64,000 nucleotides of DNA from Candidatus Poribacteria bacterium. GTDB lineage: Bacteria; Poribacteria; WGA-4E; WGA-3G. This document shows, in pieces, positions 815 through 59,200 of the stretch. Under the pieces are notes generated by a model. That model did not search any database and was not told where the DNA came from. It saw only the letters and a list, made by a program, of their open reading frames with translations. The DNA lies in NCBI GenBank assembly GCA_965220325.1, contig OZ244821.1:1179428-1243427 (forward strand), given 5' to 3'. Positions within the stretch are counted from its first letter, which is position 1; the number at the start of each line of letters is the position of its first letter. A program made the translations under genes and the position numbers.

Positions 815-904
815 GTAGGTATTTGATAACGCAAGTTGCCAGGGCGATTTAGTTTTCGGTTTTGGCTTGGGTTTTCGTTTACATAAGTTGATGTTTTCTT
901 ATGA

Positions 905-986
905 AAGATCGCGAGCACAGCTCGCTCCTACAAGGGAGAAATATTTACATAGATAAAGTAAATATGTAAAACTAAGTACCCCTGCG
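905..986 (+). repeat. REP element copy (GATCGCGAGCACAGCTCGCTCCTAC hairpin followed by TTTACATAGATAAAGTAAATATGTAAA hairpin)
   Basis: The same roughly 80 bp unit recurs at about 14415, 21497, 26310 and 61180. It has a GTAG/CTAC tetranucleotide next to an imperfect palindrome, the classic REP architecture. It is preceded by a CAGGGCGATTTAGTTTTCGGTTTT module that is also seen at 6821 and 61113. Confidence 0.6.
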
Positions 987-1080: not shown

Positions 1081-1490
1081 AAAATACTTGAAACCCTCAT
1101 TGAAGGACGCAGAAATACCCGAGCAAAACACGAAAATCTGTTAGTAGCAACTTGGGTTATTTGATAGCAGGACTTACGCACTTTTGACGATATGATGCTC
1201 CGTTAGCGGGTAAACTCTCAAAAAACAGAGGCGTTCTCAGTGCACAGGAGACCAACGGTTTCCTATGGTACAAAAGACCCACAGGCTAACAGCCTATGGT
1301 ACAAAAGAGCAACTTGGGTTATTTGATAGTATAAAACCTGTCAATACCAATTACGCAGTTTTTCTGAAAGAAACGGGAAGTTACTTTTGGACTATCTTTT
1401 ATCGGGGTAGACGTTTCTAATAGATAAGGGAAAATGGCCCGCTTATTTTTTATGGAACGGTTCGTCAGATAGACAAGGGAGGGATATACA

Positions 1491-5263: not shown

Positions 5264-6307
5264 ATGGCAAAACGAACATGTTTGATGATTGGTGGCAGTG
5301 GTATGGCAGGCGGCTGGATCCACAACTTCACGACTAATTTCAGGGACCGGATTCAGATCATCGGTCTCGCGGACGTGAATACCGATGTTCTCGCAACACA
5401 AGGCGAGGCGTTAGGACTCAGCACCTCACAACTATTCACAGACTTTAACGAGGCGTGTGCAGAGGTCAAAGCAGACTTTTGTGGCGTTGCGACCCCACCC
5501 CAATTTCACAGTCCGGCAGCAATCGCTGCTATGGAAAACGGGATGCCTGTTATCTGCGAAAAACCGATCGCGGATACCTTGGACGCAGCGAAGGCGATGG
5601 TACACACCGCACAGAAAACCGGATTACCGTGTGCAATTATCCAAAACTATCGTTACGCCAATAACAAACAGGAATTAATCCGTATCCGTGATGAAGGCAG
5701 ATTGGGACGACTTCAGCATATCGTGGGCAGATACGCGTGCGACTATCGGCGCTATCTCTCTTGGGGAAAAGAGTGGCGACACGATATGGATTTTTCACTC
5801 CTCTTTGAAGCCTCCGTTCATCATTTAGACATGCTACGGTTCCTATCCGGCGGCGATTGTGAAACGTTGATCGGATTTGGCTGGAACCCCGAATGGTCGA
5901 GCTTCCAGCACTACTCCAGCGGCCTCTATATGATGCGGATGGATAACGGCGTTCATACCGCTTATGAAGGGAATAGCTCCGCGGCCGGTATCATCAACTG
6001 CTGGAACCATGAACACTATCGCGCAGAGTTTGAGCAGGGTGCCGTCGAGATCGCAGGCGGAAACCAGATGACGATCCACCGCGTCGGCGGTGAAAGAGAG
6101 GTCTATGAGGCACCACCGATCCCCTATCACGCACATACCCATCTGTTCGATGAATTCTTGAATTGGCTTGATGGCGGCGAACCGTCTGATACTCGGATTG
6201 AGGACAACATCAAAAGCTTTGTGCTGGTCATCGCCGCAATGGAAACGAGCGTTGATGGGCAACCGAAACACATTGCTGACTATCTCAGCGACTTGAACCT
6301 TAATTAA
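5264..6307 (+). CDS. Gfo/Idh/MocA family NAD(P)-dependent oxidoreductase
   Basis: N-terminal Rossmann fold GGSGMAGGW and the EKP motif (VICEKPIADTLDAAKAM). Confidence 0.8.
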   Translation: MAKRTCLMIGGSGMAGGWIHNFTTNFRDRIQIIGLADVNTDVLATQGEALGLSTSQLFTDFNEACAEVKADFCGVATPPQFHSPAAIAAMENGMPVICEKPIADTLDAAKAMVHTAQKTGLPCAIIQNYRYANNKQELIRIRDEGRLGRLQHIVGRYACDYRRYLSWGKEWRHDMDFSLLFEASVHHLDMLRFLSGGDCETLIGFGWNPEWSSFQHYSSGLYMMRMDNGVHTAYEGNSSAAGIINCWNHEHYRAEFEQGAVEIAGGNQMTIHRVGGEREVYEAPPIPYHAHTHLFDEFLNWLDGGEPSDTRIEDNIKSFVLVIAAMETSVDGQPKHIADYLSDLNLN

Positions 6308-6412
6308 GTAGGACTTACGCATGGTAGAGATATTGATGGACGGAAGGATGGAAGGAACGGAAGGATGGCGGGACACCCCCAATCTTCCAATCTTCCAATC
6401 TTGCGTAAGTCC
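6308..6412. repeat. hairpin microsatellite element: GGACTTACGCA inverted repeats enclosing a (GGAAGGATGG)n / (CCAATCTTCC)n palindromic core
   Basis: AGGACTTACGCATGG at 6311 and CGTAAGTCC at about 6402. The interior is GGAAGG-type repeats followed by their reverse complement. The same family occurs at 33205-33335, with single arms at 25192, 29938 and 38805. Confidence 0.55.
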
Positions 6413-6427
6413 TGTTAAGTGTAAACT

Positions 6428-6736: not shown

Positions 6737-6987
6737 GGTGTGTCAATATTTCGTCAATTGTTTAGGACTTACGCATCCGGAAACCCTTTTGTAGCAAGTG
6801 GTTGTTGGTTGTTGGTAAGACAGGGCGATTTAGTTTTAAGAAATTATTGGGTTTCAGGTCTTTCTTTACAGATCCGGTTCGGTTAGGAAACCGAACCTAC
6901 CGTGCCTGGGTGGACGGTGTATTGTTAATGCGATATAAACTTTTAGAAATGGTATAACCTTACCGAACCGCAAGGAAAATTAAAAAT

Positions 6988-10856: not shown

Positions 10857-11433
10857 AGAACACGTTGGACGTGTTGTCCCACTTGACCGGATTAATGTTG
10901 ATACAGACCAGATCATCCCGAAGCAATTCTTGAAACGGATTGAACGGACAGGCTTCGGTGAATTTCTTTTTAACGATTGGCGTTACCTTGAAAATGGTGA
11001 TCCGAACCCAGAATTCGTGCTGAACTTCCCGCGCTATGCAGGTGCCAGTATTCTTGTTGCTGGTGCGAATTTCGGTTGCGGTAGCTCGCGTGAGCATGCC
11101 CCGTGGGCACTTCAGCAGTACGGGTTCAAAGCGATCCTCGCGCCATCGTTTGCGGACATTTTCCGCAATAACTGCTATAAGAACGGTATCCTTCCGATAA
11201 CGCTGCCTGCGGACGTTATCGCATCGCTCAGCCAAGAGGTACACGACACTGAGGGCTATCAATTGATGGTAGATTTGGAGGAGCAATCGGTGATCTGCGC
11301 TGACGGCACTGTACACACTTTTGAGATCGGGGATTTTGAGAAGCACTGCTTGCTGAATGGACTCGATGAAATCGGTTGGACTTTGCAATATGAAGCGGAC
11401 ATCGCAGCGTTTGAAAACCGAGGCAGCGCGTAA
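10843..11433 (+). CDS. leuD: 3-isopropylmalate dehydratase small subunit
   Basis: [49 protein letters not shown] closely matches LeuD. Confidence 0.9.
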
Positions 11434-11513: not shown

Positions 11514-12590
11514 ATGAACGTTTCAAACATAGATCTCTACCGTTTTTTTCCATCGCCGCTGGCACACTTTCCGGACAGAAGCGCGCGGTGGTTGTTTATA
11601 GACCCAGAGAACGTTAAAGGTTTAGTAGAACTCGTCGCGGGGCGTATCGCTACCCTATTGGATTTTAGCCAACTCACAGCCCTCAACCGGGACTTTCTGT
11701 CCGACACGCTCCGTGAACAGGAAGCCGACCTCGTTTTTAGTGTCCCGTTTCGCGATACCTCAGCAGACCAAGAACTGATCATCCACATCCTCATAGAGCA
11801 TCAATCTGGGGTGGACAAAGAGATGTGGTTTCGGTTTTTAGGATATATGTATAATCTCTGGGTTGCAGAACGTCAACGGTGGACAGCGGAGGAGGTTCCG
11901 AAAGAGGAACGCCGGTTGCTTCCGATTCTCCCGATCCTCTTTTACACCGGCGATCAGTCTTGGAGCCTCCCGCTGGCTCCAACTTCACTGATGGAAATCC
12001 CAGAGATACTTGCGCCGTTTGTTCCGACGTTTAACGTACTTTTGTTGGATGTCAAACAGACTGAACCAATCGAACTGACCAAAACAGGACATCCCCTCGG
12101 GTGGTTGCTTACGGTGCTCCAAAAGGAATTATCTTCAAAAGAAGAACTTACTGAGGCCTTAGTGACAGCACTCGATAGTTTAGATACGGTGCAAACCGAG
12201 CAGCATAGACGTGCGATGATATACTTGGCATCGCTCGTATATCATCGACGCCCCCCTGAAGAACGCGATACTTTGATAAAGGTCATAGACGCGCATTCGC
12301 GTGGAATGGAGGTAAAAACCATGTTTCAATCAATGGCAGAAGTCACATTTCAAAAAGGGATAGAGCAAGGGATAGAGCAAGGGATAGAGCAAGGGATAGA
12401 GCAAGGGGAAGCCCGCGCAAAACAGGTGGCACTCCTGAAACTCTTACACCACCAATTTCAGAGCATTCCCGAAACGTTAACAACATGGATTCAGACCCTC
12501 CACGATCCTGTTCATCTTGATAGGCTCTTTGAGAAGGTTCTGAACGCGGAAAACCTTCAAGATATTGACTGGGAGACCGATGACGCGTAA
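11514..12590 (+). CDS. Rpn family recombination-promoting nuclease / putative transposase (PD-(D/E)XK, YhgA-like)
   Basis: IIHILIEHQSGVDKEMWFRFLGYMYNLW core motif. C-terminal tandem (GIEQ)x4 encoded by 12-bp repeats at 12359-12406. Confidence 0.75.
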   Translation: MNVSNIDLYRFFPSPLAHFPDRSARWLFIDPENVKGLVELVAGRIATLLDFSQLTALNRDFLSDTLREQEADLVFSVPFRDTSADQELIIHILIEHQSGVDKEMWFRFLGYMYNLWVAERQRWTAEEVPKEERRLLPILPILFYTGDQSWSLPLAPTSLMEIPEILAPFVPTFNVLLLDVKQTEPIELTKTGHPLGWLLTVLQKELSSKEELTEALVTALDSLDTVQTEQHRRAMIYLASLVYHRRPPEERDTLIKVIDAHSRGMEVKTMFQSMAEVTFQKGIEQGIEQGIEQGIEQGEARAKQVALLKLLHHQFQSIPETLTTWIQTLHDPVHLDRLFEKVLNAENLQDIDWETDDA

Positions 12591-13153: not shown

Positions 13154-13981
13154 CTATTCTTCTGAAGGGCGTGTTTGGAAGCGTGCAAGTTGTTCTCGGA
13201 GACGTTCGACTTCTGCTTCGGCGTTTTCTGCTCGGTCGTGCTGCTGCTGACGTGCAATCGCTTCCCGCTCTGCTTGGGCTTCGGCTGTTTCTGCTCGGGC
13301 TTCGGCTGTTTCTGCTCGGGCTTCGGCTGTTTCTGCTCGGGCAGCCTGCATCTCCTCCGGCGTTTGCAACCACTTGCCACCCATCGGATCGTAAACCCGC
13401 AAACGCCCCTCTTGTATAACGAAATCTAAACTCAGAACATCTGAATGGATACGTCCATCAGCATCCGGTTCTATCGGCACATACACACCCGCTACAAGCC
13501 GAAAACCCATGAGCGGTGGAGACAGATAAAGTGACTCGGCATCATAGAGCAGATAGTTCGATATGCCGAGTGCAGCGTAGAGTGCTTTCTTGTCGGTGAG
13601 GTCGTTCCGATACGTCGTCTTACTTGAGAATTCCATCACAAAATCTGGAACTTTGCCCTCTTCCCAGACTTTGTATGTGTGTCGCCGTTTTTGACCGATG
13701 TCGAAAGCGACGAGAACATCAGGGGCAACGACATCACGAGGGTTGCCCTCGGTGTAATAAGTGAGAATATCACCGGAGACGTAAGTATCGGGCATAGCGG
13801 CGAAATGTTCCCGCAGTGCTTGTATAAGCCAGATAAGGATTTCCAAGTGGAGGTCGCTTGCTGCCATCGGTTTACCGTCCGTATCAGGGTAGAGGTCTGC
13901 TGTATCTGTGGGTGCGTAAGATATATTGCGTCTATTTGTGTGCGTCCGCATCGGTGTTTCTCCTCTGCCGTGAGGCATCAA
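13154..13981 (-). CDS. Uma2 family (DUF820) endonuclease with C-terminal AETAEAR repeat extension
   Basis: YPDTDGKPMAASDLH...VVAPDVLVAFDIGQKRRHTYKVWEEGKVPDFVMEFSSKTT...YAALGISNYLLYD are Uma2 motifs. The C-terminus carries (AETAEARA)x3 from 24-bp tandem repeats at 13255-13330. The start may be M11 (13951). Confidence 0.75.
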   Translation of the reverse strand: MMPHGRGETPMRTHTNRRNISYAPTDTADLYPDTDGKPMAASDLHLEILIWLIQALREHFAAMPDTYVSGDILTYYTEGNPRDVVAPDVLVAFDIGQKRRHTYKVWEEGKVPDFVMEFSSKTTYRNDLTDKKALYAALGISNYLLYDAESLYLSPPLMGFRLVAGVYVPIEPDADGRIHSDVLSLDFVIQEGRLRVYDPMGGKWLQTPEEMQAARAETAEARAETAEARAETAEAQAEREAIARQQQHDRAENAEAEVERLREQLARFQTRPSEE

Positions 13982-14101: not shown

Positions 14102-14407
14102 CTACACATCAGAACCGTTTTGTGGTACGCCGGGGGGCGGTTCTGTAAATTCCTCACTCCGCGCCGCCGCTTCTTTTCTTCGGCGATCCCATTCCACGAT
14201 TTCTTGATAAACTGCGGCCTTGCCTTCAGCAATGCCCTCGGCCTTGCCTTCAGCAATGCCCTCGGCTTTGGCAGCCTGAATCCGTTTTTCTCGCCTGTCA
14301 AGATACCAATCTGACAATAACATAATTACGTCAATGCCTCCTACTATCATTCCAGGATCATTCAATTCTCGATTTGGATATTGGTTTTGCTTTACGTAAG
14401 TGAACAC
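14102..14407 (-). CDS. hypothetical small protein with (AEGIAEGK) tandem repeats
   Basis: GTG start. C-terminal W..RRKEAA...E.F.EP.P tail is shared with 20812-21351. The N-terminal 16 codons are also found as a remnant at 21440-21497 next to a REP copy. Confidence 0.35.
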   Translation of the reverse strand: MFTYVKQNQYPNRELNDPGMIVGGIDVIMLLSDWYLDRREKRIQAAKAEGIAEGKAEGIAEGKAAVYQEIVEWDRRRKEAAARSEEFTEPPPGVPQNGSDV

Positions 14408-14414
14408 CCTTAGG

Positions 14415-14496
14415 AAAGATCGCGAGCGCAGCTCGCTCCTACAGGGGAGGAGTATTTACATAAACAAAGTGAATATGTAAAATTGAATGGTCCTGC
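14415..14496 (+). repeat. REP element copy
   Basis: AAAGATCGCGAGCGCAGCTCGCTCCTACAGGGGAGG...TTTACATAAACAAAGTGAATATGTAAA. Same family as 905-986. Confidence 0.6.
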
Positions 14497-14647: not shown

Positions 14648-14775
14648 AGTGCTCGCGATAAATATAACGACTCTTTTGTAGGAGCGAGCTGCGCTCGCGA
14701 TCTTCCTCATGCCATCGCGATCTTCCTCATGCCATCGCGATCTTCCTCATGCCATCGCGATCTTCCTCATTCCAT
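14648..14775 (-). repeat. inverted REP copy (TGTAGGAGCGAGCTGCGCTCGCGATC) plus a x4 tandem 20-mer (CATCGCGATCTTCCTCATGC) flanking the RAYT 3' end
   Basis: Reverse complement of the REP core, oriented opposite to the REP array on the other side of the RAYT gene. Confidence 0.55.
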
Positions 14776-15240
14776 CTCATATTTACATCGCCAAAATGGA
14801 TAATCCCGCGCAGCCTTTACCAATCCTGCTCTCACCGGGTTATGATAACAATATTCGATAATAGCGTTCAACGATTCATCCCGTCGAATACCGTGATCAT
14901 GGTAAGCAGGTTGCCAAATCGAACCGCTACGATCCAAACACGCATTAATCTGTTTCGCTGTGTGGCTTTTGAAGGACTGTATGAGTCTTGATAATGTTTG
15001 TTTACTGCCGAGTTGGATAACGGTGTGGATATGATCTGGCATCACACAGATACAAAACCATCTGAGTCGATCATTGGTTTCGAGCCAATCAAATGACTGA
15101 AAAATGATGTCAGCGATTTTGGGAGTTGCAAGCAGCGGTTTTTTCTTAAGTGTCGTAAGCGTGAGATAATAGTAGGTACCGGGTATGGAGTATCTGCCTT
15201 TACGGAGTTGTCGGTGTCCGCGGGTGGGTGTTCGTTGCAT
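14767..15240 (-). CDS. REP-associated tyrosine transposase (RAYT, IS200/IS605-like HuH transposase)
   Basis: 157 aa. HuH motif VMPDHIHTVIQL, SIWQPAYHDHGIR, and catalytic-Tyr region EYCYHNPVRAGLVKAARDYPFW, collinear with E. coli TnpA_REP. Flanked by inverted REPs. Confidence 0.9.
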   Translation of the reverse strand: MQRTPTRGHRQLRKGRYSIPGTYYYLTLTTLKKKPLLATPKIADIIFQSFDWLETNDRLRWFCICVMPDHIHTVIQLGSKQTLSRLIQSFKSHTAKQINACLDRSGSIWQPAYHDHGIRRDESLNAIIEYCYHNPVRAGLVKAARDYPFWRCKYEME

Positions 15241-15274
15241 TTCATATTCCTATAAGTTAGAGATTGTTTTTAGT

Positions 15275-15608
15275 GCCAAGATCGCGAGCACAGGGTCAAG
15301 ATCGCGAGCATAGTGCCAAGATCGCGAGCGACAAGAAACACCGTTTTTGCTTGGGCGTTTCTTGTAAGCAAAAACACTCGCTCCTACACAAGAGACGTTA
15401 GAATAATCGCGAGCACAGCTCGCTCCTACACAAGAGACGTTAGAATAATCGCGAGCACAGCTCGCTCCTACACAAGAGACGTTAGAATAATCGCGAGCAC
15501 AGCTCGCTCCTACACAAGAGACGTTAGAATAATCGCGAGCACAGCTCGCTCCTACACAAGAGACGTTAGAATAATCGCGAGCACAGCTCGCTCCTACACA
15601 AGAGGTGT
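15275..15608 (+). repeat. REP tandem array (about 7 units; five near-identical 42-bp units AATCGCGAGCACAGCTCGCTCCTACACAAGAGACGTTAGAAT)
   Basis: Direct tandem repeats with no spacers, so not CRISPR. The first units carry a 45-bp insertion in the hairpin loop identical to that in copy 21497. Confidence 0.65.
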
Positions 15609-21407: not shown

Positions 21408-21496
21408 GGATTTTTTTATCAAGATTTTGATGCAGGGCCATTCAATTCTCGATTTGGATATTGGTTTTGCTTTACAGAGGTGAACATTCTTACGGA

Positions 21497-21621
21497 AAAT
21501 CGCGAGCGTGAAGAAACACCGTTTTTGCTTGGGCGTTTCTTAAGCAAAAACACTCGCTCCTACCGGGGAATCATATTCACAGATATAAAGTGAATAGGTA
21601 CAATTGAATGGCCCTGATAGT
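21497..21621 (+). repeat. REP copy with 45-bp hairpin-loop insertion
   Basis: CGCGAGCG[TGAAGAAACACCGTTTTTGCTTGGGCGTTTCTTAAGCAAAAACAC]TCGCTCCTAC...TTCACAGATATAAAGTGAATAGGTACA. The insert is itself a hairpin (GTTTTTGCTT/AAGCAAAAAC). Confidence 0.6.
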
Positions 21622-21948: not shown

Positions 21949-23091
21949 GTGAAAAATAATAATATGAAAAAGTTTATAGCAGGCGAATACAGACAACAGA
22001 GAGAATATAAGAGTTTTACACCGTCCCTCGTAAACCGCTATTTTGTTTGGGAAGACCCACAGATAAATATTCTAATGGCAAGGGCAATGCAGCTCTTAGG
22101 AGAGTTAAATGCTTATGCCGAACTCATACCAGATGTAGATTTCTTCATTCAAATGACAATTACGAAAGAAGCTCGAGATTCAAATCTGCTTGAAGGGACG
22201 AGAACCGAACTTGATGAAGTTGTTCTTCCGCACACGGAAATTCCGCCGACCAGACGCGGTGATAGACAAGAGGTTCAAAATTATATTGAAGCGATGAATT
22301 TCGCAATAGCCGAACTTCCAAAAATTCCGATTTCGATGCGACTTCTCAAGGATGTACATAAAATACTACTTTCCGGTGTTCGCGGAAAACACAAGGCACC
22401 CGGTGAAATTCGCAGAAGTCAAAACTGGATTGGCGGTTCCTCGGTTTCTGATGCTTTTTTCGTTCCACCTTCTCCAGAAGAAGTCCCAGATCTTTTAAGT
22501 GATTTGGAGAAATTTTGGCACAACCGATCCCTGCAAATTCCGGAACTGATTAAAATCGCTATCACACATTATCAGTTTGAGACCATTCACCCCTTCCTTG
22601 ATGGAAACGGTAGGTGCGGGAGACTGTTAATCGTCTTGCAACTCATTGATGCAAAGATACTTGAGAAGCCGGGGCTTTATGTATCTACTTTTTTTCAGAG
22701 ACATAAAGATGCGTACTATGATTCACTTACTACGGTCCGTAAATTGAATAAATTAGATCAATGGATATTGTTTTTCTTAGAAGGAATCGCTGATGCTGCC
22801 AAGGATACAAGAGAAACGTTCAAGTCGATTACTGCGCTTCGTCAAGAATATGATACAGCGATTTTTACCTTGGGTTCTCGGGCAAAGAACGCTCAAAAAT
22901 TACTACTTTTTATGTACTCCCAACCGATTGTTAACGTAAATTGGGTTGCAACGGAATTAAACATAAACTATCCAACCGCGAACCGTCTCCTAAAATGTTT
23001 GACAGAACTTGACATACTAAAGGAAATTACGGGATACTCGCGTAATCGCTTTTTTGTCTTGGAGAAATACCTGAACCTCTTCAGAAGTTAG
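21949..23091 (+). CDS. fic: Fic family protein (class II, intramolecular inhibitory helix), probable AMP-transferase
   Basis: Canonical HPFLDGNGRCGRLL (HPFx[DE]GNGR) motif. The inhibitory motif SNLLEG ([ST]xxxE[GN]) lies N-terminal to the core. C-terminal wHTH-like region. Confidence 0.85.
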   Translation: MKNNNMKKFIAGEYRQQREYKSFTPSLVNRYFVWEDPQINILMARAMQLLGELNAYAELIPDVDFFIQMTITKEARDSNLLEGTRTELDEVVLPHTEIPPTRRGDRQEVQNYIEAMNFAIAELPKIPISMRLLKDVHKILLSGVRGKHKAPGEIRRSQNWIGGSSVSDAFFVPPSPEEVPDLLSDLEKFWHNRSLQIPELIKIAITHYQFETIHPFLDGNGRCGRLLIVLQLIDAKILEKPGLYVSTFFQRHKDAYYDSLTTVRKLNKLDQWILFFLEGIADAAKDTRETFKSITALRQEYDTAIFTLGSRAKNAQKLLLFMYSQPIVNVNWVATELNINYPTANRLLKCLTELDILKEITGYSRNRFFVLEKYLNLFRS

Positions 23092-24093: not shown

Positions 24094-25191
24094 ATGAAAA
24101 TTCGAGATATTAAAGTCTATCAAGTGGATCTGCCGCTTTATGAAGGCAGCTACAACTGGTCCGGCGGAAAATCTGTTTCCGTTTTCGACAGTACGATTGT
24201 CTCCGTTGAAACAGACGAAGGTATTACCGGCTACGGTGAAGTCTGTCCGTTGGGACCGTTCTATCTGCCTGCTTACGCCACCGGTGCACGTACCGGTATC
24301 GCTGAACTTGCACAGCACCTCATCGGTGAAGACCCGACGCAACTCCTCCCGCTCAACCGACAGATGGACATCGCACTCAAGGGGCATCCGTACGTGAAAT
24401 CTGCAATCGACATGGCGTGCTGGGATATCCTCGGGAAAGCTTCAAACGCATCTATCTGCACGCTTCTCGGTGGGCGGTATGGCGAGGACTTCATGCTCTA
24501 TCGCGCGATCTCACAGGAATCGCCTGACGAGATGGCGGCGAAGGTTGCAACTTACCGGGCGGAGGGGTACCGTAAATTCCAGTTGAAAGTCGGCGGGGAT
24601 CCAAATACCGATATCGAACGTATCCACGCTGTCGCCGAGTTGATGGAATCGGGAGATGTGCTGATCGCGGATGCAAACACGGGGTGGTTGATGCACCAAG
24701 CTGCTCGCGTCGTCCGAGGTGTGAGCGATGTGGATGTCTATATCGAGCAGCCCTGTCTCTCATACGAAGAGTGCCTCGCCATCCGTCAGCGGACCGACCA
24801 CCCCTTTGTTCTCGATGAGACCATCGACGGCATCCACGCCTTATTACGCGGTCATGCCGACCGGGCGATGGATGTTGTGAATATCAAGATTAGCAAATTC
24901 GGCGGATTGACCAAAGCGAAACTCGCCAGAGACCTCTGCGTTGAACTCGGCGTAGCGATGACGATTGAAGACAGCTGGGGCGGCGATATTACAACCGCCG
25001 CGATTGCGCATCTGGCACACAGCACACCGCCAGAATTCCTTTTCACAGCGACGGATTTCAACAGTTATGTCACTGTCAGCACGGCGGAAGGCGCGCCGCA
25101 ACGGGTTAACGGCAGGATGGCAGCGTCAACGCAACCAGGTTTGGGGATTACACCGAAGATGGGGGTGTTGGGTGAAGAGCGGAAGAGGTGA
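24094..25191 (+). CDS. mandelate racemase/muconate lactonizing enzyme family (enolase superfamily) protein
   Basis: MR/MLE N-terminal capping domain plus barrel with metal-ligand region. 365 aa. Confidence 0.8.
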
Positions 25192-25270
25192 AGAGGGAAG
25201 GATGGAAGGCGGAAAGATGGAAGAGGGGAGGATGGAAGACCGGAGGATGGAAGAGGGGAGGCGGGAAGTT

Positions 25271-26236: not shown

Positions 26237-26309
26237 TTAGGACTTACGCATGCGGCTCTTTCGTACCACAAACTTTATGAAGATTAAATAAATATTTGGG
26301 TAATCGTTA

Positions 26310-26388
26310 AAGATCGCGAGCGCAGCTCGCTCCTACAGGGAAGAAGTATTTACATAGATAAAGTGAATATGTAAACTAAATACCCCTA
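26310..26388 (+). repeat. REP element copy
   Basis: AAAGATCGCGAGCGCAGCTCGCTCCTACAGGGAAGAAGTATTTACATAGATAAAGTGAATATGTAAA, immediately 3' of the LamG-protein gene. Confidence 0.6.
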
Positions 26389-28046: not shown

Positions 28047-29144
28047 TCAATTGTCTTTTCGCAGCAGCATTGGAGACGTGAGGTCCCATAGGCGGACGGT
28101 GCCATCTTTACTGCCGCTCGCGAGCGTTACGCCATCCGGACTGAAAGCGACACTCTTAACAGGTGCCGTGTGCCCTGCAAGGGTCGCAATGTGCTTGCCG
28201 GCGGCAATATTCCAGAGTCGGATTGTCTTGTCCTCGCCACCACTTGCCAGCGTTAATCCATCCGGACTGAAGGCAACACTCCACACAACGGATGTATGCC
28301 CTATAAAGATTTTCAGTTGCTGCCCTGTGGTCGTATCCCAAAGTCGGATTGTCTTGTCCCAACTCCCACTCGCGAGTGTCCGTCCATCTGGACTGAAAGC
28401 GACACTAAAGACCCAATTCGTGTGCCCAATAAGCGTTTTCAATTTCTCACCGGTATCAATATCCCACAAACAGACGCTGTTTCCTGCATCGCCACTCGCT
28501 AACGTTTTGCCGTCGCTACTGAATGCGACGCTGAAGATGTTCTCGGTATCCTCAATCAGTGCTTTCAACCGTTTACCTGTTTCTACGTCCCATAGATAGA
28601 GATTCCCATCCTCGCTGCCACTTGCGAGTATCTTGCTATCCGTGCTGAATGCGACAGTATTGACCCAATGCAAACCATTCGGGGCATTTTCTTTCATTGA
28701 CCTGAGCAGCTCGCCGGTAGCAGCGTCCCAGAGGCAAATTACCTCACTTTCATCAATGCCACCTGCGATCATCTGTCCATCCGGACTAAAAGCGACGCTG
28801 TTAATATTCGCAGTGAAGTTCCGTTGAAAAGCCACCCAGAAATTTGCCGCCAATTTGATCTCTTCTCCCGTGACAGCATCCGAGAGTCGGACGGTGTTCT
28901 CCTTGTCACTGGCAACTATTGAACCATCCGGGCTAAACACAACGCTGTGGATGCCTCTCTTGACGGCTAAATCAATCGTGATATGAGACAGATCGGGCAC
29001 GAAAGTTGGTTCCATAGTGGATTTCTCCTTTTGGGTTGCGTCTTCAGATTCCACGGGTGCCACCCCAGTCAATATCAAAAATGTTATGATCATCGTAAAG
29101 ATGATGCCCCAAAAATTAGCTCTGCTGATAGTTGTATAAATCAT
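28047..29144 (-). CDS. WD40-repeat protein with N-terminal signal/TM segment
   Basis: At least 7 WD repeats (LASGSWDKTIRLWD, LASGGEDKTIRLWN, LASGSKDGTVRLWD). ATGA start/stop overlap with anmK. Confidence 0.75.
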   Translation of the reverse strand: MIYTTISRANFWGIIFTMIITFLILTGVAPVESEDATQKEKSTMEPTFVPDLSHITIDLAVKRGIHSVVFSPDGSIVASDKENTVRLSDAVTGEEIKLAANFWVAFQRNFTANINSVAFSPDGQMIAGGIDESEVICLWDAATGELLRSMKENAPNGLHWVNTVAFSTDSKILASGSEDGNLYLWDVETGKRLKALIEDTENIFSVAFSSDGKTLASGDAGNSVCLWDIDTGEKLKTLIGHTNWVFSVAFSPDGRTLASGSWDKTIRLWDTTTGQQLKIFIGHTSVVWSVAFSPDGLTLASGGEDKTIRLWNIAAGKHIATLAGHTAPVKSVAFSPDGVTLASGSKDGTVRLWDLTSPMLLRKDN

Positions 29145-30511
29145 GGCAGTACAAACTTTCCGAGGATTTTCCGAACAGATGCCCCTGTCGCTGAAGGCAG
29201 GTTCCCCGCATTTCCGTGGAGCGTCTCATTCGCCAGAATCGCGAACGCGATCGCCTCCTTCGCATCCGCTGAGATACCAGAGGTGTTCACAGGTTCAACT
29301 GTCGTGTTTTCCAATACTTCGCTCAACCGTTGCATGAGGGTCTGATTGTGGACACCGCCGCCACTCACATAAAGCACGTCTATCGGATTTTGTCCCGCTA
29401 TAAATTGTGCGATGTAGCCGGTAATCGTTTGGACCGTCAACTCGGTCAGTGTCGCGATGCAGTCGTTATCTGAAAGTGTGCGCTTCCGGCAAGCTGTGAG
29501 ACATTCCATCGCATAATTGCGTCCAAACATCTCACGTCCAGTCGTTTTTGGCGGTGGCAGATGGAAAAACGGGTGCTTCAACCATTCGTCAATGATCGGT
29601 TGGTGCGGCGTACCCTGCGCGGCACGCTGCCCCGCTGCGTCATACCGTTCTGTCCCTTCCGTGATCTCTGTTATGACAGCGTCAATACACATATTGCCGG
29701 GCCCCGTATCCGCGGCACAGACAGTATCGAATGCGCCATTTGCCGGAAGCACCGTGAGATTCGCAATCCCGCCGATATTCAAGAGTCCGACTGTTTCAGT
29801 GCTGTTGTGGAACAGCAGATAATCTGGGTATGATACCAACGGTGCACCTTGTCCGCCTGCTGCCATATCCGCGACGCGGAAATCCGCTATCGTTGGAATC
29901 CCTGTTTCGTGTGCAATGACTGCAGGCTCCCCAATCTGCAATGTCGATGACAGGGTGGAAGGGTGGAAGGGTGGAAGGGTGGAAGGGATTGGAAGGGATT
30001 GGAAGGATGGAAGGGCGGAAGGATGGGGGGGATTGGAAGGGTGGATGGGTGGAAGGGTGGAAGGGATTGGAAGGGATTGGAAGGATGGAAGGGCGGAAGG
30101 ATGGAGGGGATTGGAAGGATGGAAGGGTGGAAGGGTGGAAGGGATGTTTGGGTCTTTCGGGAGGTGATGGATCGTTTGGCCGTGTGAACCGATGAGGTCA
30201 ATATCGCTGGTAGACATTTCGCTTTTTTGTAGGATGTGTTTAACTGCCTCAGCGAAGAGGTATCCGATATAGAAATTCATTTCACAGATGTCGTCAACAC
30301 GACCCGTATCGGGTTGACAGAGCGCAAGGATACGTTGTGGCACGCCAGATGGAAACGGAACAGTCTCAAAAGCGATCAGGTCTACTTTAGTTTCCAAACC
30401 GTGTCCGACAATTTCGACAATAGCAGCATCAATGCCGTCAACTGAGGTACCGGACATTAACCCGATAACCAATTTTTTATCTTTCTTGAGAAGTTCAAAA
30501 AAATGTTTCAT
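29141..30511 (-). CDS. anmK: anhydro-N-acetylmuramic acid kinase with an in-frame roughly 65 aa Pro-rich repeat insertion
   Basis: GLMSGTSVDGIDAAIVEI..., GSHGQTIHH..., TLQIGEPAVIAHETGIPTIADFRVADMAAGGQGAPLV are collinear with E. coli AnmK. The insert TLPPFHPSNPLHPSALPSFQSLPIPS... is encoded by CCTTCC repeats. Confidence 0.85.
   Translation of the reverse strand: MKHFFELLKKDKKLVIGLMSGTSVDGIDAAIVEIVGHGLETKVDLIAFETVPFPSGVPQRILALCQPDTGRVDDICEMNFYIGYLFAEAVKHILQKSEMSTSDIDLIGSHGQTIHHLPKDPNIPSTLPPFHPSNPLHPSALPSFQSLPIPSTLPPIHPSNPPHPSALPSFQSLPIPSTLPPFHPSTLSSTLQIGEPAVIAHETGIPTIADFRVADMAAGGQGAPLVSYPDYLLFHNSTETVGLLNIGGIANLTVLPANGAFDTVCAADTGPGNMCIDAVITEITEGTERYDAAGQRAAQGTPHQPIIDEWLKHPFFHLPPPKTTGREMFGRNYAMECLTACRKRTLSDNDCIATLTELTVQTITGYIAQFIAGQNPIDVLYVSGGGVHNQTLMQRLSEVLENTTVEPVNTSGISADAKEAIAFAILANETLHGNAGNLPSATGASVRKILGKFVLP
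29938..30172. repeat. (GGAAGG[GA]TGG)n microsatellite block lying inside the anmK reading frame
   Basis: GGGTGGAAGGGTGGAAGGGTGGAAGGGATTGGAAGG... on the plus strand. Same repeat family as 6337-6400, 25192-25268, 33215-33300 and 38805-38850. Confidence 0.6.
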
Positions 30512-30765
30512 CTGCTAAAAGTTGTCAGTTGTCAGTACGATTTTTTTCTGCGAAAAAAATCTTTCAGTTGTCAGTAGTTTTCAGTTTTCAGTACGGTTTT
30601 TCTGCGAAAAACCTTTCAGTCGTCAGAAAGAGACTTGTGGAACTATCACAACCCTCTTTTAACTGATAACCGATAACCGAAAGGAATCGTACCCGATTCC
30701 GTACTGATAACCATTCCCTCTGATAACTGACAACTGATAACTGACAACTATTTCCTCTGATAACT
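30510..30765. repeat. CAGTTGTCAGT / CTGATAACTGACAA simple repeats in the anmK-namZ intergenic region
   Basis: Multiple direct and inverted copies. A similar tract is at 39296-39340. Confidence 0.4.
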
Positions 30766-30769
30766 ATTT

Positions 30770-31971: not shown

Positions 31972-33264
31972 CTATATAGTGTACACGATGTTGTGGAACA
32001 TCCTCCGAAAGTCGATGATACCGCGCCGGTCAGCATCAGGGTGCACCCGATTTGTCAGCAGGATAGCCGCGAGTTTCCTTTTCAGGCATATCCGTATTGA
32101 GGTACCGGTGAATCCTGTATGATAGAGACACCCATCGTCTGTTACGATCCAACCGATACAACGGCGTTCTCCTTCCGCTGAAACGACTTGACGCATCGTG
32201 TTAAGACTCTCCGGCCGCAATAAACCGTTTCCGCCGCTATCCATCAACGCTTTACAAAACTTTCCGAGGTCTGTTGACGTAGAAAAGAGACCTGCGTTTC
32301 CTGAAATCCCGCCGAGGAAATGTGCGTTTTCGTCGTGTACCTGTCCGATAATCACGCCTTCGCGCCAGTCGTAGCGTTCGTAGTTGACCATCCGACGTTC
32401 AAAACTGTTTGAATCCTCAGTCGCTGCACAATTCTTATGCCATTCCTGCGGTGGATTGAACCGCGTCCACTCCATACCGAGCGGCGCGAAAATCCGCTCT
32501 TCTGATAGTTCGTCAAGCGACTGTCCTGTTACCCTTTCAAGCAATTTACCGAGTACGATATACCCTAAGCAGCTATACACCGTCTTTTCTCCGGGTTGAG
32601 ATGCCAAAGCGATCTGACCGAGGTAAGAGACAACCCGCTCACGAGATTCCGCCCGTAGATAGAGCGGTATCCATGCCGGGAGTCCAGAGGTATGCGCCAG
32701 CAGGTGTGTGAGCGTTACGCCCTTCTGTCGGAATTCCGGCAGATATTCCTGCACCGGTCTACGCAGTGAAAGTTCACCGCTTTCAACGAGTTGCATGCAA
32801 AGTGTTCCGACAACAATAGGTTTTGTCAGCGATGCTAAGTCAAAGAGTGTCCTGCGAAGCATCGGGAGGCGTTTCGGTTTTACGCATCGGAAGCCGAACG
32901 CTTCATGGTAAATCACTCGCTCGCTAGTGAGAATGTATGCAACAGCTCCGGGGAACACCTTTTCCGAAATGCTATTTTGAATAAGTGTCGAAATCGTATT
33001 TTTAATTATTGGCCTCCGTACATCGTTCCACTTCGTTTCACGATGGTTTCTGATCAAGGACGCAACACAAGTAGAAACAAACACATCGGAAATAACCAAA
33101 AACCTGCTCGAAATGTAATGGAGAGCAGAAAAAGTACCTCTAATTATTGGCCTCCGTACATCGTTCCACTTCGTTTCACGGCAGAAAAAGAGCCAATATC
33201 TTAAATAGGACTTAGGCAAAAGTGGAAGAGTGGAAGAGTGGAAGAGTGGAAGGTGTCCTTCCAT
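31972..33264 (-). CDS. beta-lactamase-fold serine hydrolase (AmiE/YbbE-like, probable MurNAc-peptide amidase); start uncertain
   Basis: SxxK motif LASLTKP. N-terminal FPGAVAYILTSERVIYHEAFG. Coupled to namZ with a 2 nt gap. The first 90 or so codons of the track ORF are repeat-derived (GGAAGG block plus a 40-bp direct repeat). Confidence 0.55.
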   Translation of the reverse strand: MEGHLPLFHSSTLPLLPKSYLRYWLFFCRETKWNDVRRPIIRGTFSALHYISSRFLVISDVFVSTCVASLIRNHRETKWNDVRRPIIKNTISTLIQNSISEKVFPGAVAYILTSERVIYHEAFGFRCVKPKRLPMLRRTLFDLASLTKPIVVGTLCMQLVESGELSLRRPVQEYLPEFRQKGVTLTHLLAHTSGLPAWIPLYLRAESRERVVSYLGQIALASQPGEKTVYSCLGYIVLGKLLERVTGQSLDELSEERIFAPLGMEWTRFNPPQEWHKNCAATEDSNSFERRMVNYERYDWREGVIIGQVHDENAHFLGGISGNAGLFSTSTDLGKFCKALMDSGGNGLLRPESLNTMRQVVSAEGERRCIGWIVTDDGCLYHTGFTGTSIRICLKRKLAAILLTNRVHPDADRRGIIDFRRMFHNIVYTI

Positions 33265-33335
33265 CCTTCCGTTCCTTCCATCCTTCCGTTCCTTCCATCC
33301 TTCCGTCCATCAATATCTCTACCATGCGTAAGCCC
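33205..33335. repeat. hairpin microsatellite element (GTGGAAGA)n-(TTCCATCCTTCCG)n bounded by AGGACTTAGGCA / TGCGTAAGCCCT
   Basis: Reverse-complement arrangement of the 6308-6412 element, including TAGAGATATTGATGGACGGAAGG. Confidence 0.55.
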
Positions 33336-33438
33336 TGTTAAAATTAGTTGACTGAGATACTACCTATATGATACACTATTTCTCGTATTTTTGTCAGCAA
33401 CTTTTGATACATGCAAGCCGCCGCCCAGGGAATCAATC

Positions 33439-38803: not shown

Positions 38804-38862
38804 AGATTGGAAGATTGGAAGATTGGAAGGGTGGAAGAGGGGAAGAAAGGTAGATCGGAACG

Positions 38863-56283: not shown

Positions 56284-59200
56284 CTATTTCCGTATCAACA
56301 GTTTCCGGGTCGCAAAATAATTGCCCGCTTTGAGGGTGTAGAAATACACGCCTGTCGCAACCTTTTCACCGAGCTGATTCCGTCCATCCCAATGCGCCGC
56401 CTTGCTCCGACTTTGGTAGATACCCGCAGGCTGGTGCCCCAATCGCAACTTCCGCACGATCCGCCCCCGCACATCGTAGATCGTTAGCGTAACTTCTGCC
56501 GGTTTGGCGAGCTGATACGGTATCCACGTTTCAGGGTTGAACGGGTTCGGGAAGTTAGTCAAGAGTGCAGTATTATCAGGAATCACAAGAGATGTTTCAA
56601 GGGATGGCGCAGCACCTACGACATCCGTGACATTGATGGTAACGGTAATACTATCAGTCCCACCCTTCCCATCAGAGACAGCGACTTTGACCGTATAAGT
56701 GCTCTTCGTTTCAGCATCAAGTTCAGCGTTAGTTTGGAGTTGACCGGATGATTTAACAATACGAAACGAATCCGCATCCGTGCCACCGAGATGATAAGTG
56801 AGTGTATCCCCGGTATCCTCATCTGTGGCAGCGACCACACTGCCGATGTTTGTACCGGAAGCGGTGTTTTCTGCTACAGAACGGGTTGTGCTATCACCAT
56901 CGCTAAACACAGGGGCGTTATTATTTGCTACTGCAGGAATTGTAATATCTAAGGTTAAACCTGGATGACCTTCAATTACCTCAATTGCTGCCTTGAGTCG
57001 ACGGAGGGGACCATAATCCAAAATCTGATTCCCCGACAGACCAAGTTCTGTGAGTGCGGTCAAGTTTTCAAGCGCAGAAACATCGCTTATGGAATTGTTA
57101 TTCAGAGCGAGTTCTGTGAGTGCGGTCAAGTTTTCAAGGGCGGATATATCACTGATCCAATTGTTAGACAGAATGAGTCGTTTCAGTGAAGTCAAGTTTT
57201 CAAGGGCGGATATATCGCTTATGGGATTCCAATGCAGATTGAGGTCTGTGAGTGCGGTCAAGTTTTTAAGGGCGGATATATCGCTTATGGAATTCCAATC
57301 CATCTTGAGGTTTGTGAGTGCGGTCAAGTTTTTAAGGGCGGATATACTGCTTATGGAATTACGAGACAGATCGATCCAATTCAGTGCGGTCAAGTTTTTA
57401 AGGGCGGATATATCGCTTATGGAATTGTAACTCAGAAAGAGCTGTTTCAGTGAAGTCAAGTTTTTAAGTGTGGATATATCGCTTATGGAATTATTATGCA
57501 GATATAACCATTCCAGTGCGGTCAAGTTTTTAAGGGCGGATATATCGCTTATGGGATTGAAACCCAGAAAGAGCCATTTCAGTGAAGTCAAGTTTTTAAG
57601 GGCGGATATATCGCTTATGGAATTGTGTTTCAGAACGAGGTTTGTCAGTGAAGTAAATCCATCAAAATCACCAACCTTTAGTGCCGTTATTCTTCTGTAG
57701 TCAATGCTAAGGGAAGTTATTGCAGCAAGATGGGCTGCAGTCACATCGGCGGCATTATTAACATTCGGTACCGCAGCAACAATTGCATCTCGCACCTGTC
57801 GTGTGCGTTCATTGACCGGAGTAAATTCGGATACATCCGTCACATTTATGGTAACGGCGATGCTATCACTCCCGCCGCTGCCATCAGAGACAGACACTGA
57901 CACGGAATAAGACGACTTGCTTTCATAATCCAAGGCGGCACTCGTCTGCAGTTGCCCAGAGGTCGAAACAATACGAAACGAACTTGCATCCGTGCCCCCC
58001 AAAGTATACGTGAGTGTATCGCCGCTATCCGTATCTGTCGCAGCAATAGCACTGCCGATGTTTCTGCCGGAGGGAGTGTTCTCTGCGATGGAGCGCGTCG
58101 TCTCGGTGCCATCGTTGAAGACAGGTGCGTTGTTAGGAGCCGCACTCACTTGAATTGAGAACGTCAGCGTGGCTGAAAGTGTTCCATCACTCGCCGTATA
58201 GGTATAGGTCGCTGAAGCTGTCTCAGTTGTAGGTGTTCCAGAAAGCGTGCGCGTTGAAGCCGTAAAGGTCAACCCGGCAGGGAGTGCTGGTGTCACCGTG
58301 TATGTGATCGTATTGCCAGCATCAACATCGGTTGCTTCAGGCAAGGCCACCGACGTGATTGCTGTTCCTGCGGTGGCAGAAATATTACTGATGCTTGCTC
58401 CCGCACTGAACGCTGGTGCCTCGTTGACGTTCGTGACATTAATCGTGACGGCGATGCTATCACTCCCGCCGTTTTTATCAGAAACAGATACTGACACAGA
58501 ATAAGACGACTTGCTTTCGTAGTTTAGGGCAGCACTAGTTCGGAGTTGCCCGGATGTGCCGACAATACTGAACAAGGAGGCATCTGCGCCACCTAAAGTA
58601 TAGGTGAGTGTGTCGCTGGTATCCGCATCTGTCGCAGCAACGGGACTTCCGATGTTTGTACCTGAACGGGTGTTCTCAGCAACAGACCGAGTAGTGCTGG
58701 TGCCATCGTTGAATGCGGGGGCGCGGTTCTCATTCACATCTGTAATATTGATGGTGACGAGGACGCTATTGACAAGACCCCCGCTATCCGTCGCGCGGAC
58801 AGCCAGATTGTTGTAAGTGCGCTTCGTTTCATAGTCAAGAGCCGCGCGGGTTTGCAGCTGCCCTGTCCTTGCGTCAATACGAAATACGTTTTTATCGCCC
58901 CGCTGAAGCGAATAGGTCAGTGTATCGCCACTATCGGGGTCTGTGGCCTGGAAGGGCCTGCCGATGTTTCTGCCGGAAGCCGTGTTCTCTGGGACGGAGA
59001 GTGTGACCCTTCCAAAAGTGCTGAAACTCGGTTTCTCATTGACATCTGTAACACTGATCGTGACGGCGATGCTATCTGTGCCGCCATTGCCGTCGGAGAC
59101 AGAAACCGTGACAGCGTAGGAGTTGTCTGCTTCATGGTTCAGGGCAACATTGGTTTGCAGCTGCCCGGAGGTGGAAACAATGCGAAACGAGGACGCATCC

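What the first reader, a model, noticed from the sequence alone, without database searches (positions are those of the whole stretch)
6308..6412. Genome-specific hairpin microsatellite family: (GGAAGG)n-(CCTTCC)n cores bounded by GGACTTACGCA inverted repeats
- **Full elements.** Complete copies at 6308-6412 and 33205-33335 are in opposite orientation to each other. Each has an 11-15 nt inverted repeat, AGGACTTACGCATGG / CGTAAGTCCT. The repeats flank a GGAAGG-rich arm followed by its reverse complement, predicting a long perfect hairpin.
- **Single arms.** Half-elements occur at 25192-25268, 29938-30172 and 38805-38850.
- **Standalone motif.** The AGGACTTACGCA motif also recurs alone directly after stop codons at 1173, 6764 and 26240.
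- **Gene context.** Arms intrude into the anmK coding region, into the AmiE-like N-terminus, and into the region immediately upstream of the OCD gene, where a GGAGG from the repeat may serve as the Shine-Dalgarno.
- **Interpretation.** This is a third, uncharacterised small-repeat family in 64 kb.
Basis: seen in the sequence. Interest (0 to 1): 0.6.

Follow-up and report, generated by a model that had tools for sequence, protein, structure and literature searches.

The report
IS701-type miniature transposon with microsatellite arms
The repeated "hairpin microsatellite" is a small non-coding transposon (a MITE) in a sponge-symbiont Poribacteria genome. Its 13-base ends are those of IS701-family insertion sequences, and its GGAAG repeats are unstable internal filler, so it is an ordinary kind of element in a group where none has been described.

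Summary

**What is there.** YAGGACTTACGCA occurs five times perfectly and twice with one mismatch in 64 kb. It bounds two elements, 6309-6414 and 33206-33337, which share 75 nt at 89% identity in opposite orientation.

The arms are only partly complementary, so these are not perfect hairpins. The ends are not genome-specific either.

**Evidence for a transposon.**
- Each element is flanked by a 5-bp AT-rich direct repeat (TTAAG, TTAAA).
- A related Poribacteria genome carries the exact empty site for element 2, with a single copy of the 5-mer.
- The 13-nt terminus equals the ends of IS701-family insertion sequences. These are the published ISPlag1, a 1,102-bp IS found here, and a Methylomicrobium IS. 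The 1,102-bp IS has a 5-bp duplication and a 340-aa transposase scoring 407 bits on NCBIfam IS701.
- At least five other small elements from other genomes share the ends and have unrelated interiors.

**Conclusion.** These are MITEs of an IS701-type DDE transposon, not IS200/IS605 targets.

**The GGAAG repeats.** The octamer arms are slippage-prone internal repeats that differ between strains. The arrays without terminal repeats (25174, 29952, 38804) are separate or decayed microsatellites.

**Gap.** No cognate transposase lies in the window.

**Verdict.** New member of a known kind, modest interest.

The parts
6309..6414 (+). Full MITE copy 1 (106 nt). Layout: TAGGACTTACGCA, then TGGTAGAGATATTGATGGAC, then a GGAAGG-type arm, a loop, (CCAATCTT)3, then TGCGTAAGTCCTG. 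It lies between the GFO/IDH/MocA oxidoreductase gene (stop at 6307) and a 102-aa ORF (start at 6428).
   Evidence: Present at the same site in four other strains with internal length differences.
6304..6308 (.). Left copy of the 5-bp target duplication TTAAG of copy 1. It contains the TAA stop of the upstream gene. The right copy is at 6415-6419.
6415..6419 (.). Right copy of the target duplication TTAAG of copy 1.
33206..33337 (-). Full MITE copy 2 (132 nt), in opposite orientation to copy 1. It is inserted between a conserved promoter-like site and the beta-lactamase-family gene on the minus strand.
   Evidence: (I1, I6). Absent from three related genomes.
33201..33205 (.). Left copy of the 5-bp target duplication TTAAA of copy 2. 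The right copy is at 33338-33342.
   Evidence: L015 carries one copy at the empty site.
33338..33342 (.). Right copy of the target duplication TTAAA of copy 2.
1168..1312 (+). Truncated copy of a second subfamily. It has the same left end (CAGGACTTACGCA) but a different interior. The right terminal repeat is missing, and the copy is bracketed by a 21-bp direct repeat.
   Evidence: Homologous to the complete 123-nt element L015:19324-19446, which has a TTATA duplication.
6763..6775 (+). Solo terminal repeat (TAGGACTTACGCA). It lies inside a roughly 165-nt patchwork of repeat fragments that is absent from a related genome.
26238..26250 (+). Solo terminal repeat 1 nt after the OCD stop codon. It starts a roughly 140-nt insert that ends in a fragment of another MITE family.
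   Evidence: The TGA stop is ancestral and the insert is absent in L015.
29952..30145 (+). GGAAGG octamer array with no terminal repeats. On the minus strand it encodes a 61-residue Pro/Ser-rich in-frame insert in AnmK.
   Evidence: L015 has a two-armed insert at the same codon. L009 and L016 have none.
25174..25268 (+). GGAAG/GGAGG array (15-nt period) between the MR/MLE gene end and the OCD start, with no terminal repeats. It looks like an in-place expansion of a purine-rich ribosome-binding region.
38804..38846 (+). (AGATTGGA)n array between the sigma-54 activator stop and the pseudopilin gene start, with no terminal repeats. 23 nt are identical to the right arm of copy 1.
   Evidence: (I22).

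Best explanation
[quoted passage not shown] They are non-coding derivatives, or hitch-hikers, of an IS701-family DDE insertion sequence of the ISPlag1-like subgroup.

**How it moves.** A transposase supplied in trans recognises the 13-bp terminal inverted repeats. It cuts the element out or copies it, then inserts it into a short AT-rich target. Staggered cleavage duplicates 5 bp of target (TTAAG, TTAAA). AT-rich pentamers often overlap TAA/TGA, so copies tend to land right after stop codons.

**Where the "hairpin microsatellite" look comes from (secondary).** In this species' subfamily the interior consists of GGAAG-type octamer repeats in inverted orientation in the two halves. At least the AAGATTGG arm is seeded by sequence immediately inside the terminal repeat; the same AGGACTTACGCAAGATTGGAA is found next to that end in an unrelated genome. 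These repeats expand, contract and lose segments by replication slippage, so copies differ between strains.

**Other pieces.** Solo terminal repeats are truncated or overwritten copies. The GGAAG arrays without terminal repeats are either decayed insertions (anmK) or independent expansions of purine-rich ribosome-binding regions.

**Shown:** terminal repeats, target duplications, a filled-versus-empty site, identity of the ends to autonomous IS701 elements, and strain-level variation.

**Inferred:** trans-mobilisation, slippage as the source of the arms, and any effect on neighbouring genes.
For: - **Non-random termini.** Five perfect 12-mers in 64 kb.
- **Two related copies.** They share 75 nt at 89% identity, including non-repetitive sequence.
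- **Target duplications.** 5-bp direct repeats flank both copies.
- **Empty site.** Removing copy 2 plus one TTAAA reproduces the L015 sequence across the junction, 66 of the first 72 positions identical.
- **Strain polymorphism.** A one-ended copy, CAGGACTTACGCA-(AGATTGGA)8-9..., is present in four strains. It is absent from the window at a site holding a single CAAAAT.
- **Published IS.** ISPlag1 (IS701 group) has terminal repeats CAGGACTTACGCAAGCACGC... (PMC2464740).
- **Autonomous IS found here.** L076:9248-10349 is 1,102 bp. Its ends are CAGGACTTACGCAAG and CAGGACTTACGCAAA, and its duplication is the 5-bp ACTCG. Its single 340-aa ORF scores 407 bits on NCBIfam NF049921, IS701 family transposase (cutoff 250).
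- **Second IS.** The Methylomicrobium IS has the same tips.
- **Other MITE-sized elements with the same ends, different interiors and 5-bp duplications.** L015 (TTATA), L012 (TGAAT), L020 (ACCTA), L100 (AGAAA).
- **Strain-level array changes.** 8 vs 9 units, 2 vs 3 units, and a 27-30-nt segment present or absent in two arrays.
- **No competing RNA explanation.** No Rfam family and no terminator-like T-run.
Against: - **No cognate transposase seen.** None was found in the window or in about 100 kb of poribacterial loci (tblastn; Pfam). Current mobility in this genome is therefore unproven.
- **Small sample.** Only two full copies are available from this genome, and genome-wide copy number is unknown.
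- **Duplication length.** The 2008 survey reports exactly 4 bp for nearly all IS701 members (PMC2266710). Here it is 5 bp, although the autonomous IS in L076 also shows 5 bp.
- **Limited similarity.** Similarity between the MITEs and the IS is limited to the 13-nt tip.
- **Exceptions.** Two elements (L094; L101/L102) show no duplication.
- **No clean empty site for copy 1.** Related genomes carry end-like remnants there.
- **Arrays not linked.** The arrays without terminal repeats show no significant remnant of the ends.
Confidence: 0.8

Rival explanations
1. REP-like element mobilised by a Y1 (IS200/IS605-type, RAYT) transposase that recognises hairpins.
For: - A 157-aa Y1_Tnp ORF lies at 14767-15240.
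- Copy 1 happens to begin GTAGGA, resembling the GTAG head of REPs.
Against: - That ORF is flanked by its own, different repeats: GTAGGAGCGAGCTGCGCTCGC, in arrays at 14649-14776 and 15275-15604.
- Other copies begin ATAGG, TTAGG or CAGG.
- Y1 transposition makes no target duplication, whereas 5-bp duplications and an empty site are seen.
- The ends equal those of a DDE-type IS.
Confidence: 0.03
2. A host-selected structured RNA or DNA hairpin (terminator, attenuator, mRNA stabiliser or protein-binding site) that was duplicated, rather than a transposon.
For: - Folding is more stable than shuffles on both strands.
- Copies sit in an operon spacer 13 nt before a start codon and in a likely 5' UTR.
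Against: - No Rfam match.
- No T-run after the stem.
- Both strands fold equally well, and the interior is not conserved between strains.
- Target duplications and the empty site show insertion.
- A secondary regulatory effect is not excluded, so this is partly compatible with the main explanation.
Confidence: 0.07
3. Plain microsatellite slippage of GGAAG-type repeats, with the flanking motif being coincidental.
For: GGAAG arrays without the motif occur at three other places. One of them looks like an in-place expansion.
Against: - The motif is about 600-fold over chance.
- It is inverted at both ends of both copies.
- It is shared with IS ends.
- The copies share non-repetitive sequence.
- Elements with the same ends but no microsatellite exist.
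Confidence: 0.02
4. Dead relics: the elements are IS701-type MITEs, but no active transposase remains in this lineage. All present variation would be slippage and deletion, not transposition.
For: - No transposase in about 160 kb examined.
- Copy 1 sits at the same site in all five strains.
- There are many solo or truncated ends.
Against: - The two full copies are still 89% identical over 75 nt.
- A one-ended copy is polymorphic between near-identical strains, with a clean single-copy site in the window. That could be recent insertion, although deletion between the repeats explains it too.
Confidence: 0.3

Closest known systems
ISPlag1 and related IS701-family insertion sequences (NCBIfam NF049921 subgroup)
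   Same: - The terminal 13-15 nt are identical: CAGGACTTACGCA(AG).
- Terminal inverted repeats are present.
- The relative found here (L076) also makes a 5-bp duplication.
- Christiansen et al. 2008 (PMC2464740) also describe short 197-bp remnants that keep the ends.
   Different: - The window elements are 106-132 nt with no transposase.
- They share nothing with the IS beyond the tip.
- They carry octamer microsatellites.
- The host is Poribacteria, not cyanobacteria or methanotrophs.
Bacterial MITEs in general, for example Correia elements of Neisseria and Nezha of Nostocales (from my own knowledge)
   Same: - Roughly 100-150 nt.
- Terminal inverted repeats and short target duplications.
- Intergenic location, often co-transcribed and able to fold into a hairpin.
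- Presence/absence differences between relatives.
   Different: - Different parent IS family. Those have TA duplications and IS630-like or unknown partners; here the duplication is 5 bp and the ends are IS701-type.
- The interior is tandem octamers that vary between strains.
Tandem-repeat-containing MITEs, for example DTC84 of the clam Donax trunculus (PMC3879986, listed; only title and abstract seen), and modular BOX elements of pneumococcus (from my own knowledge)
   Same: A mobile shell enclosing a variable number of short tandem repeats.
   Different: - Those repeats are longer units in direct orientation.
- Here two different octamer arrays face each other, giving a partial hairpin.
REP elements and RAYT transposases
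   Same: Short, abundant, hairpin-forming extragenic repeats. A RAYT-like gene with its own REPs is present in the same window.
   Different: REPs have no terminal inverted repeats of this type and no target duplication. The window's REP sequence is unrelated.

Membership tests
MITE (miniature inverted-repeat transposable element) | Small size with no coding capacity | tested here: met
   The two copies are 106 and 132 nt. Their interior is made of octamer repeats.
MITE (miniature inverted-repeat transposable element) | Terminal inverted repeats | tested here: met
   Copy 1 has a 12-nt perfect core, 13 nt counting the Y tip (T at one end, C at the other, so the tips do not pair). Copy 2 has 11 of 12 core positions on each side.
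MITE (miniature inverted-repeat transposable element) | Direct duplication of the target site | tested here: met
   TTAAG and TTAAA flank the two copies. 5-bp repeats also flank four other elements with the same ends, and one full IS.
MITE (miniature inverted-repeat transposable element) | Filled versus empty site in related genomes | tested here: met
   L015 matches the window once copy 2 and one TTAAA are removed. The window is the empty site for the one-ended copy seen in L001-L004.
MITE (miniature inverted-repeat transposable element) | Multiple dispersed copies in one genome | tested here: inconclusive
   The 64 kb holds 2 full copies, 1 truncated copy and 2 solo ends. The rest of the genome could not be scanned. 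The species is not represented in the GTDB scan.
IS701-family-derived element | Ends identical to those of an autonomous IS | tested here: met
   CAGGACTTACGCA is shared with L076 and L094 and with published ISPlag1.
IS701-family-derived element | That IS encodes an IS701-family transposase | tested here: met
   The L076 ORF scores 407 bits on NF049921 against a cutoff of 250. It also matches Pfam DDE_Tnp_1 and DDE_5.
IS701-family-derived element | Same target-duplication length as the parent IS | tested here: inconclusive
   The IS in L076 shows 5 bp, as the MITEs do. The 2008 family survey gives 4 bp. The Methylomicrobium copy shows none.
IS701-family-derived element | Sub-terminal similarity to the parent IS beyond the tip | tested here: not met
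   Alignments of the ends show conservation only in the first 13 nt.
IS701-family-derived element | Autonomous partner in the same genome | not testable with these tools
   tblastn found nothing in the window or in the poribacterial loci.
REP/RAYT system | No target duplication; a GTAG/GGAG head followed by a short palindrome; copies cluster around a Y1 transposase gene | tested here: not met
   Duplications are present. The heads vary. The Y1 gene in the window is surrounded by a different repeat.
Intrinsic terminator | GC-rich stem followed by a T-run | tested here: not met
   No terminator-like site overlaps either copy.
Known RNA family (Rfam) | Match at gathering score | tested here: not met
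   No matches anywhere in the window.

The most novel reading that the evidence does not exclude
The octamer arrays carried by these MITEs, and spread to ribosome-binding regions and into anmK, could act as contingency loci in an uncultivated sponge symbiont. Strain-to-strain changes in repeat number would alter hairpin strength or the number of Shine-Dalgarno-like GGAGG/GGAAGG sites in front of genes (OCD, pseudopilin, the 102-aa ORF, the beta-lactamase-family gene). They would also alter the length of a Pro/Ser-rich loop in AnmK. Transposon-seeded microsatellites would then provide heritable, reversible tuning of expression.
Probability: 0.1. Interest if true: 0.55.

Novelty: new member of a known kind. 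Interest (0 to 1): 0.3.

Why it matters
- **Annotation.** It explains three puzzling features at once: the motif after stop codons, the inverted microsatellites, and the solo motifs. The explanation is a well-understood mechanism. It also shows that the long ORF over copy 2 is not a real N-terminus.
- **Poribacteria biology.** These are uncultivated sponge symbionts. The library searched holds no paper describing such elements in them. The elements give a marker for strain typing, since repeat number and presence or absence differ between otherwise near-identical strains. They also show that intergenic regions here are being remodelled by at least three small-repeat families.
- **Transposon biology.** One 13-nt IS701-type end is shared by autonomous elements and many unrelated miniature elements across distant bacteria. 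Sequence just inside a terminal repeat can also seed microsatellites.
- **Overall.** None of this is surprising in kind.

Tried and rejected
- **GTDB scan.** The scan of representative genomes for CTTACGCATGGTAGAGAT gave only three chance hits in Firmicutes.
- **JGI metagenome scan.** A degenerate 22-mer gave four chance hits and one informative one, L012.
- **Failed look-ups.** Exact-protein look-ups for NamZ, OCD, MR/MLE and P0001 were not on record.
- **Viral scan.** The 19-mer AGGACTTACGCAAGATTGG found nothing in viral contigs.
- **Poribacterial transposase.** The homology search returned only close methanotroph-type relatives and no taxonomy for the rest.
- **Empty site for copy 1.** The 91% and 84% orthologous loci have short spacers containing end-like fragments instead of a clean empty site.
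- **anmK insert in L015.** A test for decayed terminal repeats was not significant for the tip. I therefore dropped the claim that the anmK array is a proven MITE remnant.
- **Region upstream of PspA.** It differs wholesale between strains, so no empty site for the 1168 element could be defined.
- **Integron attC idea.** I considered that the GTTAAGT after copy 1 could be an attC site. I dropped it because the neighbouring genes are conserved housekeeping genes in fixed order, and the second copy does not fit GTTRRRY.
- **GC skew.** It follows gene orientation and says nothing about replication bias.

Full report

Yes, in its core.
- GGACTTACGCA with up to one mismatch occurs 9 times in the window against 0.93 expected. 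No shuffle out of 100 reaches 9.
- The 12-mer AGGACTTACGCA is perfect at 1169, 6310(+), 6413(-), 6764 and 26239. It has one mismatch at 33207(+) and 33336(-).
- The motif bounds two elements, 6309-6414 and 33206-33337. They lie in opposite orientation and share 75 nt at 89% identity (I1). The shared part includes a non-repetitive stretch, TGGTAGAGATATTGATGGAC.
- GGAAG-type arrays exist at the other stated places.

The "long perfect hairpin" is not correct.
- The two arms are built from different units: GGAAGGAWSG vs AAGATTGG in copy 1, and AGTGGAAG vs a 17-mer in copy 2.
- They pair only partly. Predicted folds are still better than shuffles (z from -4.3 to -6.3), about equally on both strands.

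**2. Whose genome**

Proteins of the window are found on MAG and metagenome contigs. NamZ homologues are named Candidatus Poribacteria. This is a poribacterium. The sponge-symbiont lifestyle is inferred from what is known of that group (my own knowledge), not read from the sample records.

**3. Anatomy**

- With the element ends set at Y-AGGAC, both copies are flanked by a 5-bp direct repeat: TTAAG for copy 1 and TTAAA for copy 2.
- Copy 1 lies 1 nt after the TAA of a GFO/IDH/MocA gene and 13 nt before the next start codon. The stop codon is inside the duplicated TTAAG.
- Copy 2 lies in a divergent intergenic region, downstream of a promoter-like site that is conserved in relatives.
- The long ORF running through copy 2 is not real. 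Orthologous beta-lactamase-family genes are 343-344 aa and start downstream.

**4. Comparative evidence for insertion**

- Three related poribacterial genomes (85-87% NamZ identity) lack copy 2.
- In L015 the flanks align on both sides. Deleting the element and one TTAAA from the window reproduces the L015 sequence, with 66 of the first 72 positions identical across the junction. That is a classical filled-versus-empty site with a 5-bp duplication.
- Four near-identical strains (L001-L004) carry copy 1 at the same site, but with internal differences: one extra CCAATCTT unit in L002, and a 27-30-nt segment that the window lacks.
- The same strains carry a one-ended copy, CAGGACTTACGCA followed by 8-9 AGATTGGA units. 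It lies after the ABC-transporter gene. There the window has an uninterrupted site with a single CAAAAT.

**5. What the ends are**

- A full-text search for the motif found that ISPlag1 of Planktothrix, assigned to the IS701 group, has terminal inverted repeats CAGGACTTACGCAAGCACGCTATATATAG (PMC2464740).
- I then found an autonomous element directly, L076:9248-10349.
  - It is 1,102 bp.
  - Its ends are CAGGACTTACGCAAG and CAGGACTTACGCAAA.
  - It is flanked by the 5-bp repeat ACTCG.
  - It has one 340-aa ORF. The ORF scores 407 bits on NCBIfam NF049921 "IS701 family transposase" (cutoff 250). It also matches Pfam DDE_Tnp_1 and DDE_5.
- Its closest named relatives are IS701 transposases of Methylomicrobium and Methylosarcina. 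The Methylomicrobium copy has the same tips.
- MITE-sized elements with the same tips but unrelated interiors occur in several places:
  - another poribacterial species, L015:19324-19446, with duplication TTATA; a truncated homologue sits at window 1168-1312;
  - a 40%-GC JGI contig, L012, with TGAAT;
  - IMG/VR contigs L020 (ACCTA), L100 (AGAAA) and L101/L102 (no duplication).
- Similarity between the IS and the MITEs does not extend beyond the 13-nt tip.
- No IS701 transposase is encoded in the window or in the other poribacterial loci.

**6. Mechanism (best explanation, confidence about 0.8)**

- These are MITEs mobilised in trans by an IS701-type DDE transposase. The transposase recognises the 13-bp ends and inserts into AT-rich pentamers with a 5-bp duplication.
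- Landing next to stop codons follows from the target preference. At 26239 the TGA is ancestral.
- The GGAAG arms are secondary. The sequence AGGACTTACGCAAGATTGGAA is shared with L012, so the AAGATTGG unit was already present next to the end. Arrays then expand, contract and lose segments between strains.
- Trans-mobilisation and slippage are inferred, not shown.

**7. The arrays without terminal repeats**

- The anmK array is a 61-codon in-frame insert. L015 has a two-armed GGAAG/CTTCC insert at the same codon, while L009 and L016 have none. No significant remnant of the terminal repeat is detectable.
- The array upstream of OCD replaces a purine-rich ribosome-binding region present in L015. 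The array at 38804 replaces a short spacer.
- In 21 kb each, L009 and L016 have neither the motif nor such arrays.
- The link of these arrays to the MITE is plausible but unproven.

**8. Rivals**

- A REP/RAYT system is present in the window (Y1_Tnp at 14767-15240), but with its own unrelated repeats. Y1 transposition does not duplicate targets.
- A host-selected RNA hairpin is not supported: no Rfam hit, no T-run, and an interior that varies between strains. A side effect on expression is not excluded.
- Pure slippage is refuted for the full copies.
- Whether the family is still mobile in this genome is open.

**9. Novelty**

The kind is well known. The family appears undescribed in Poribacteria; only one unrelated paper in the library mentions both terms. 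Interest is modest at 0.3.

Noticed in passing
window 14649-15604: A 157-aa Y1_Tnp (IS200-like, probably RAYT) ORF lies at 14767-15240(-). It is flanked by arrays of a REP-like repeat, GTAGGAGCGAGCTGCGCTCGCGATCTT. These include a perfect 42-nt x 5.4 tandem array at 15377-15604 and 20-nt repeats at 14695-14776 and 15275-15329.
   Followed up: partly
window 840-984, 14353-14495, 21433-21616, 61114-61323; fragments at 6821-6837 and 26284-26388: A second MITE-like family of about 145-210 nt has ends CAGGGCGATTTAGTTTT...AAAACTAAGTACCCCTG and an embedded copy of the REP. Two copies are flanked by 10-11-bp direct repeats (CGCAAGTTGC; CTATCTTTTCT). Fragments of it lie about 50-60 nt from two of the solo IS701-type ends.
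   Followed up: partly
window 30512-30769: The spacer between anmK and namZ is 258 nt here, against 4-143 nt in relatives. It holds inverted heptamer arrays, (AGTTGTC)n facing (CTGACAA)n, around two copies of a hairpin CGATTTTTTTCTGCGAAAAAAATC. This is a second "hairpin microsatellite" with no IS701-type ends.
   Followed up: no
window 32990-33160: Next to copy 2, a roughly 57-nt segment is flanked by the 9-bp direct repeat CTTTTTCTG and is absent from L015. About 40 nt of it (CGTGAAACGAAGTGGAACGATGTACGGAGGCCAATAATTA) occurs twice, just upstream of the beta-lactamase-family gene.
   Followed up: partly
window 1147-1329: The truncated element at 1168-1312 lacks its right end. It is bracketed by a 21-bp direct repeat, GCAACTTGGGTTATTTGATAG, and has a 37-nt internal duplication. 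The origin of the long flanking repeat is unexplained.
   Followed up: partly
L001:11117-11146, L002:9217-9243 and 11125-11154: A 27-30-nt segment with a mini-hairpin (TGTTTTTGCTGGGGTGTTTCCCCTAGG) sits at the same distance from the terminal repeat in two different arrays. It is present or absent depending on strain. It may be the ancestral interior, or it may be copied between arrays.
   Followed up: partly
L098:4042-4073 and L099:4042-4102: At the site orthologous to copy 1, related genomes have short spacers containing end-like fragments. L098 has CAGGACTTAGGTA (11 of 13). L099 has GTAGAGGATGG and TTAACAGGAG. This suggests an old or repeated occupation of this spacer.
   Followed up: partly
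L076:9248-9262: In the autonomous IS the transposase stop codon is the TAA inside the terminal repeat (GCG TAA GTC CTG). Part of the conservation of the end may therefore be due to coding. The IS sits in an IMG/VR contig, between two unannotated ORFs.
   Followed up: no
window 11514-12590; 21949-23091; 13154-13981: A Transposase_31 (YhgA/Rpn-like) gene, a Fic/DOC gene and an Uma2-family endonuclease-like ORF lie in a low-GC stretch (about 43-47%) that differs from the gene order in strain L001.
   Followed up: no
window 56284-60672 and 28047-29144: A 1,462-aa ORF is built of about 300-nt repeats plus nine 66-nt (22-aa) repeats. A separate protein carries a 126-nt (42-aa) repeat. These periods suggest leucine-rich and WD40 repeats respectively, but the two ORFs were not scanned against any family library. 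TPR genes are present at 46522 (confirmed by Pfam) and probably at 41862 (102-nt repeat only).
   Followed up: no
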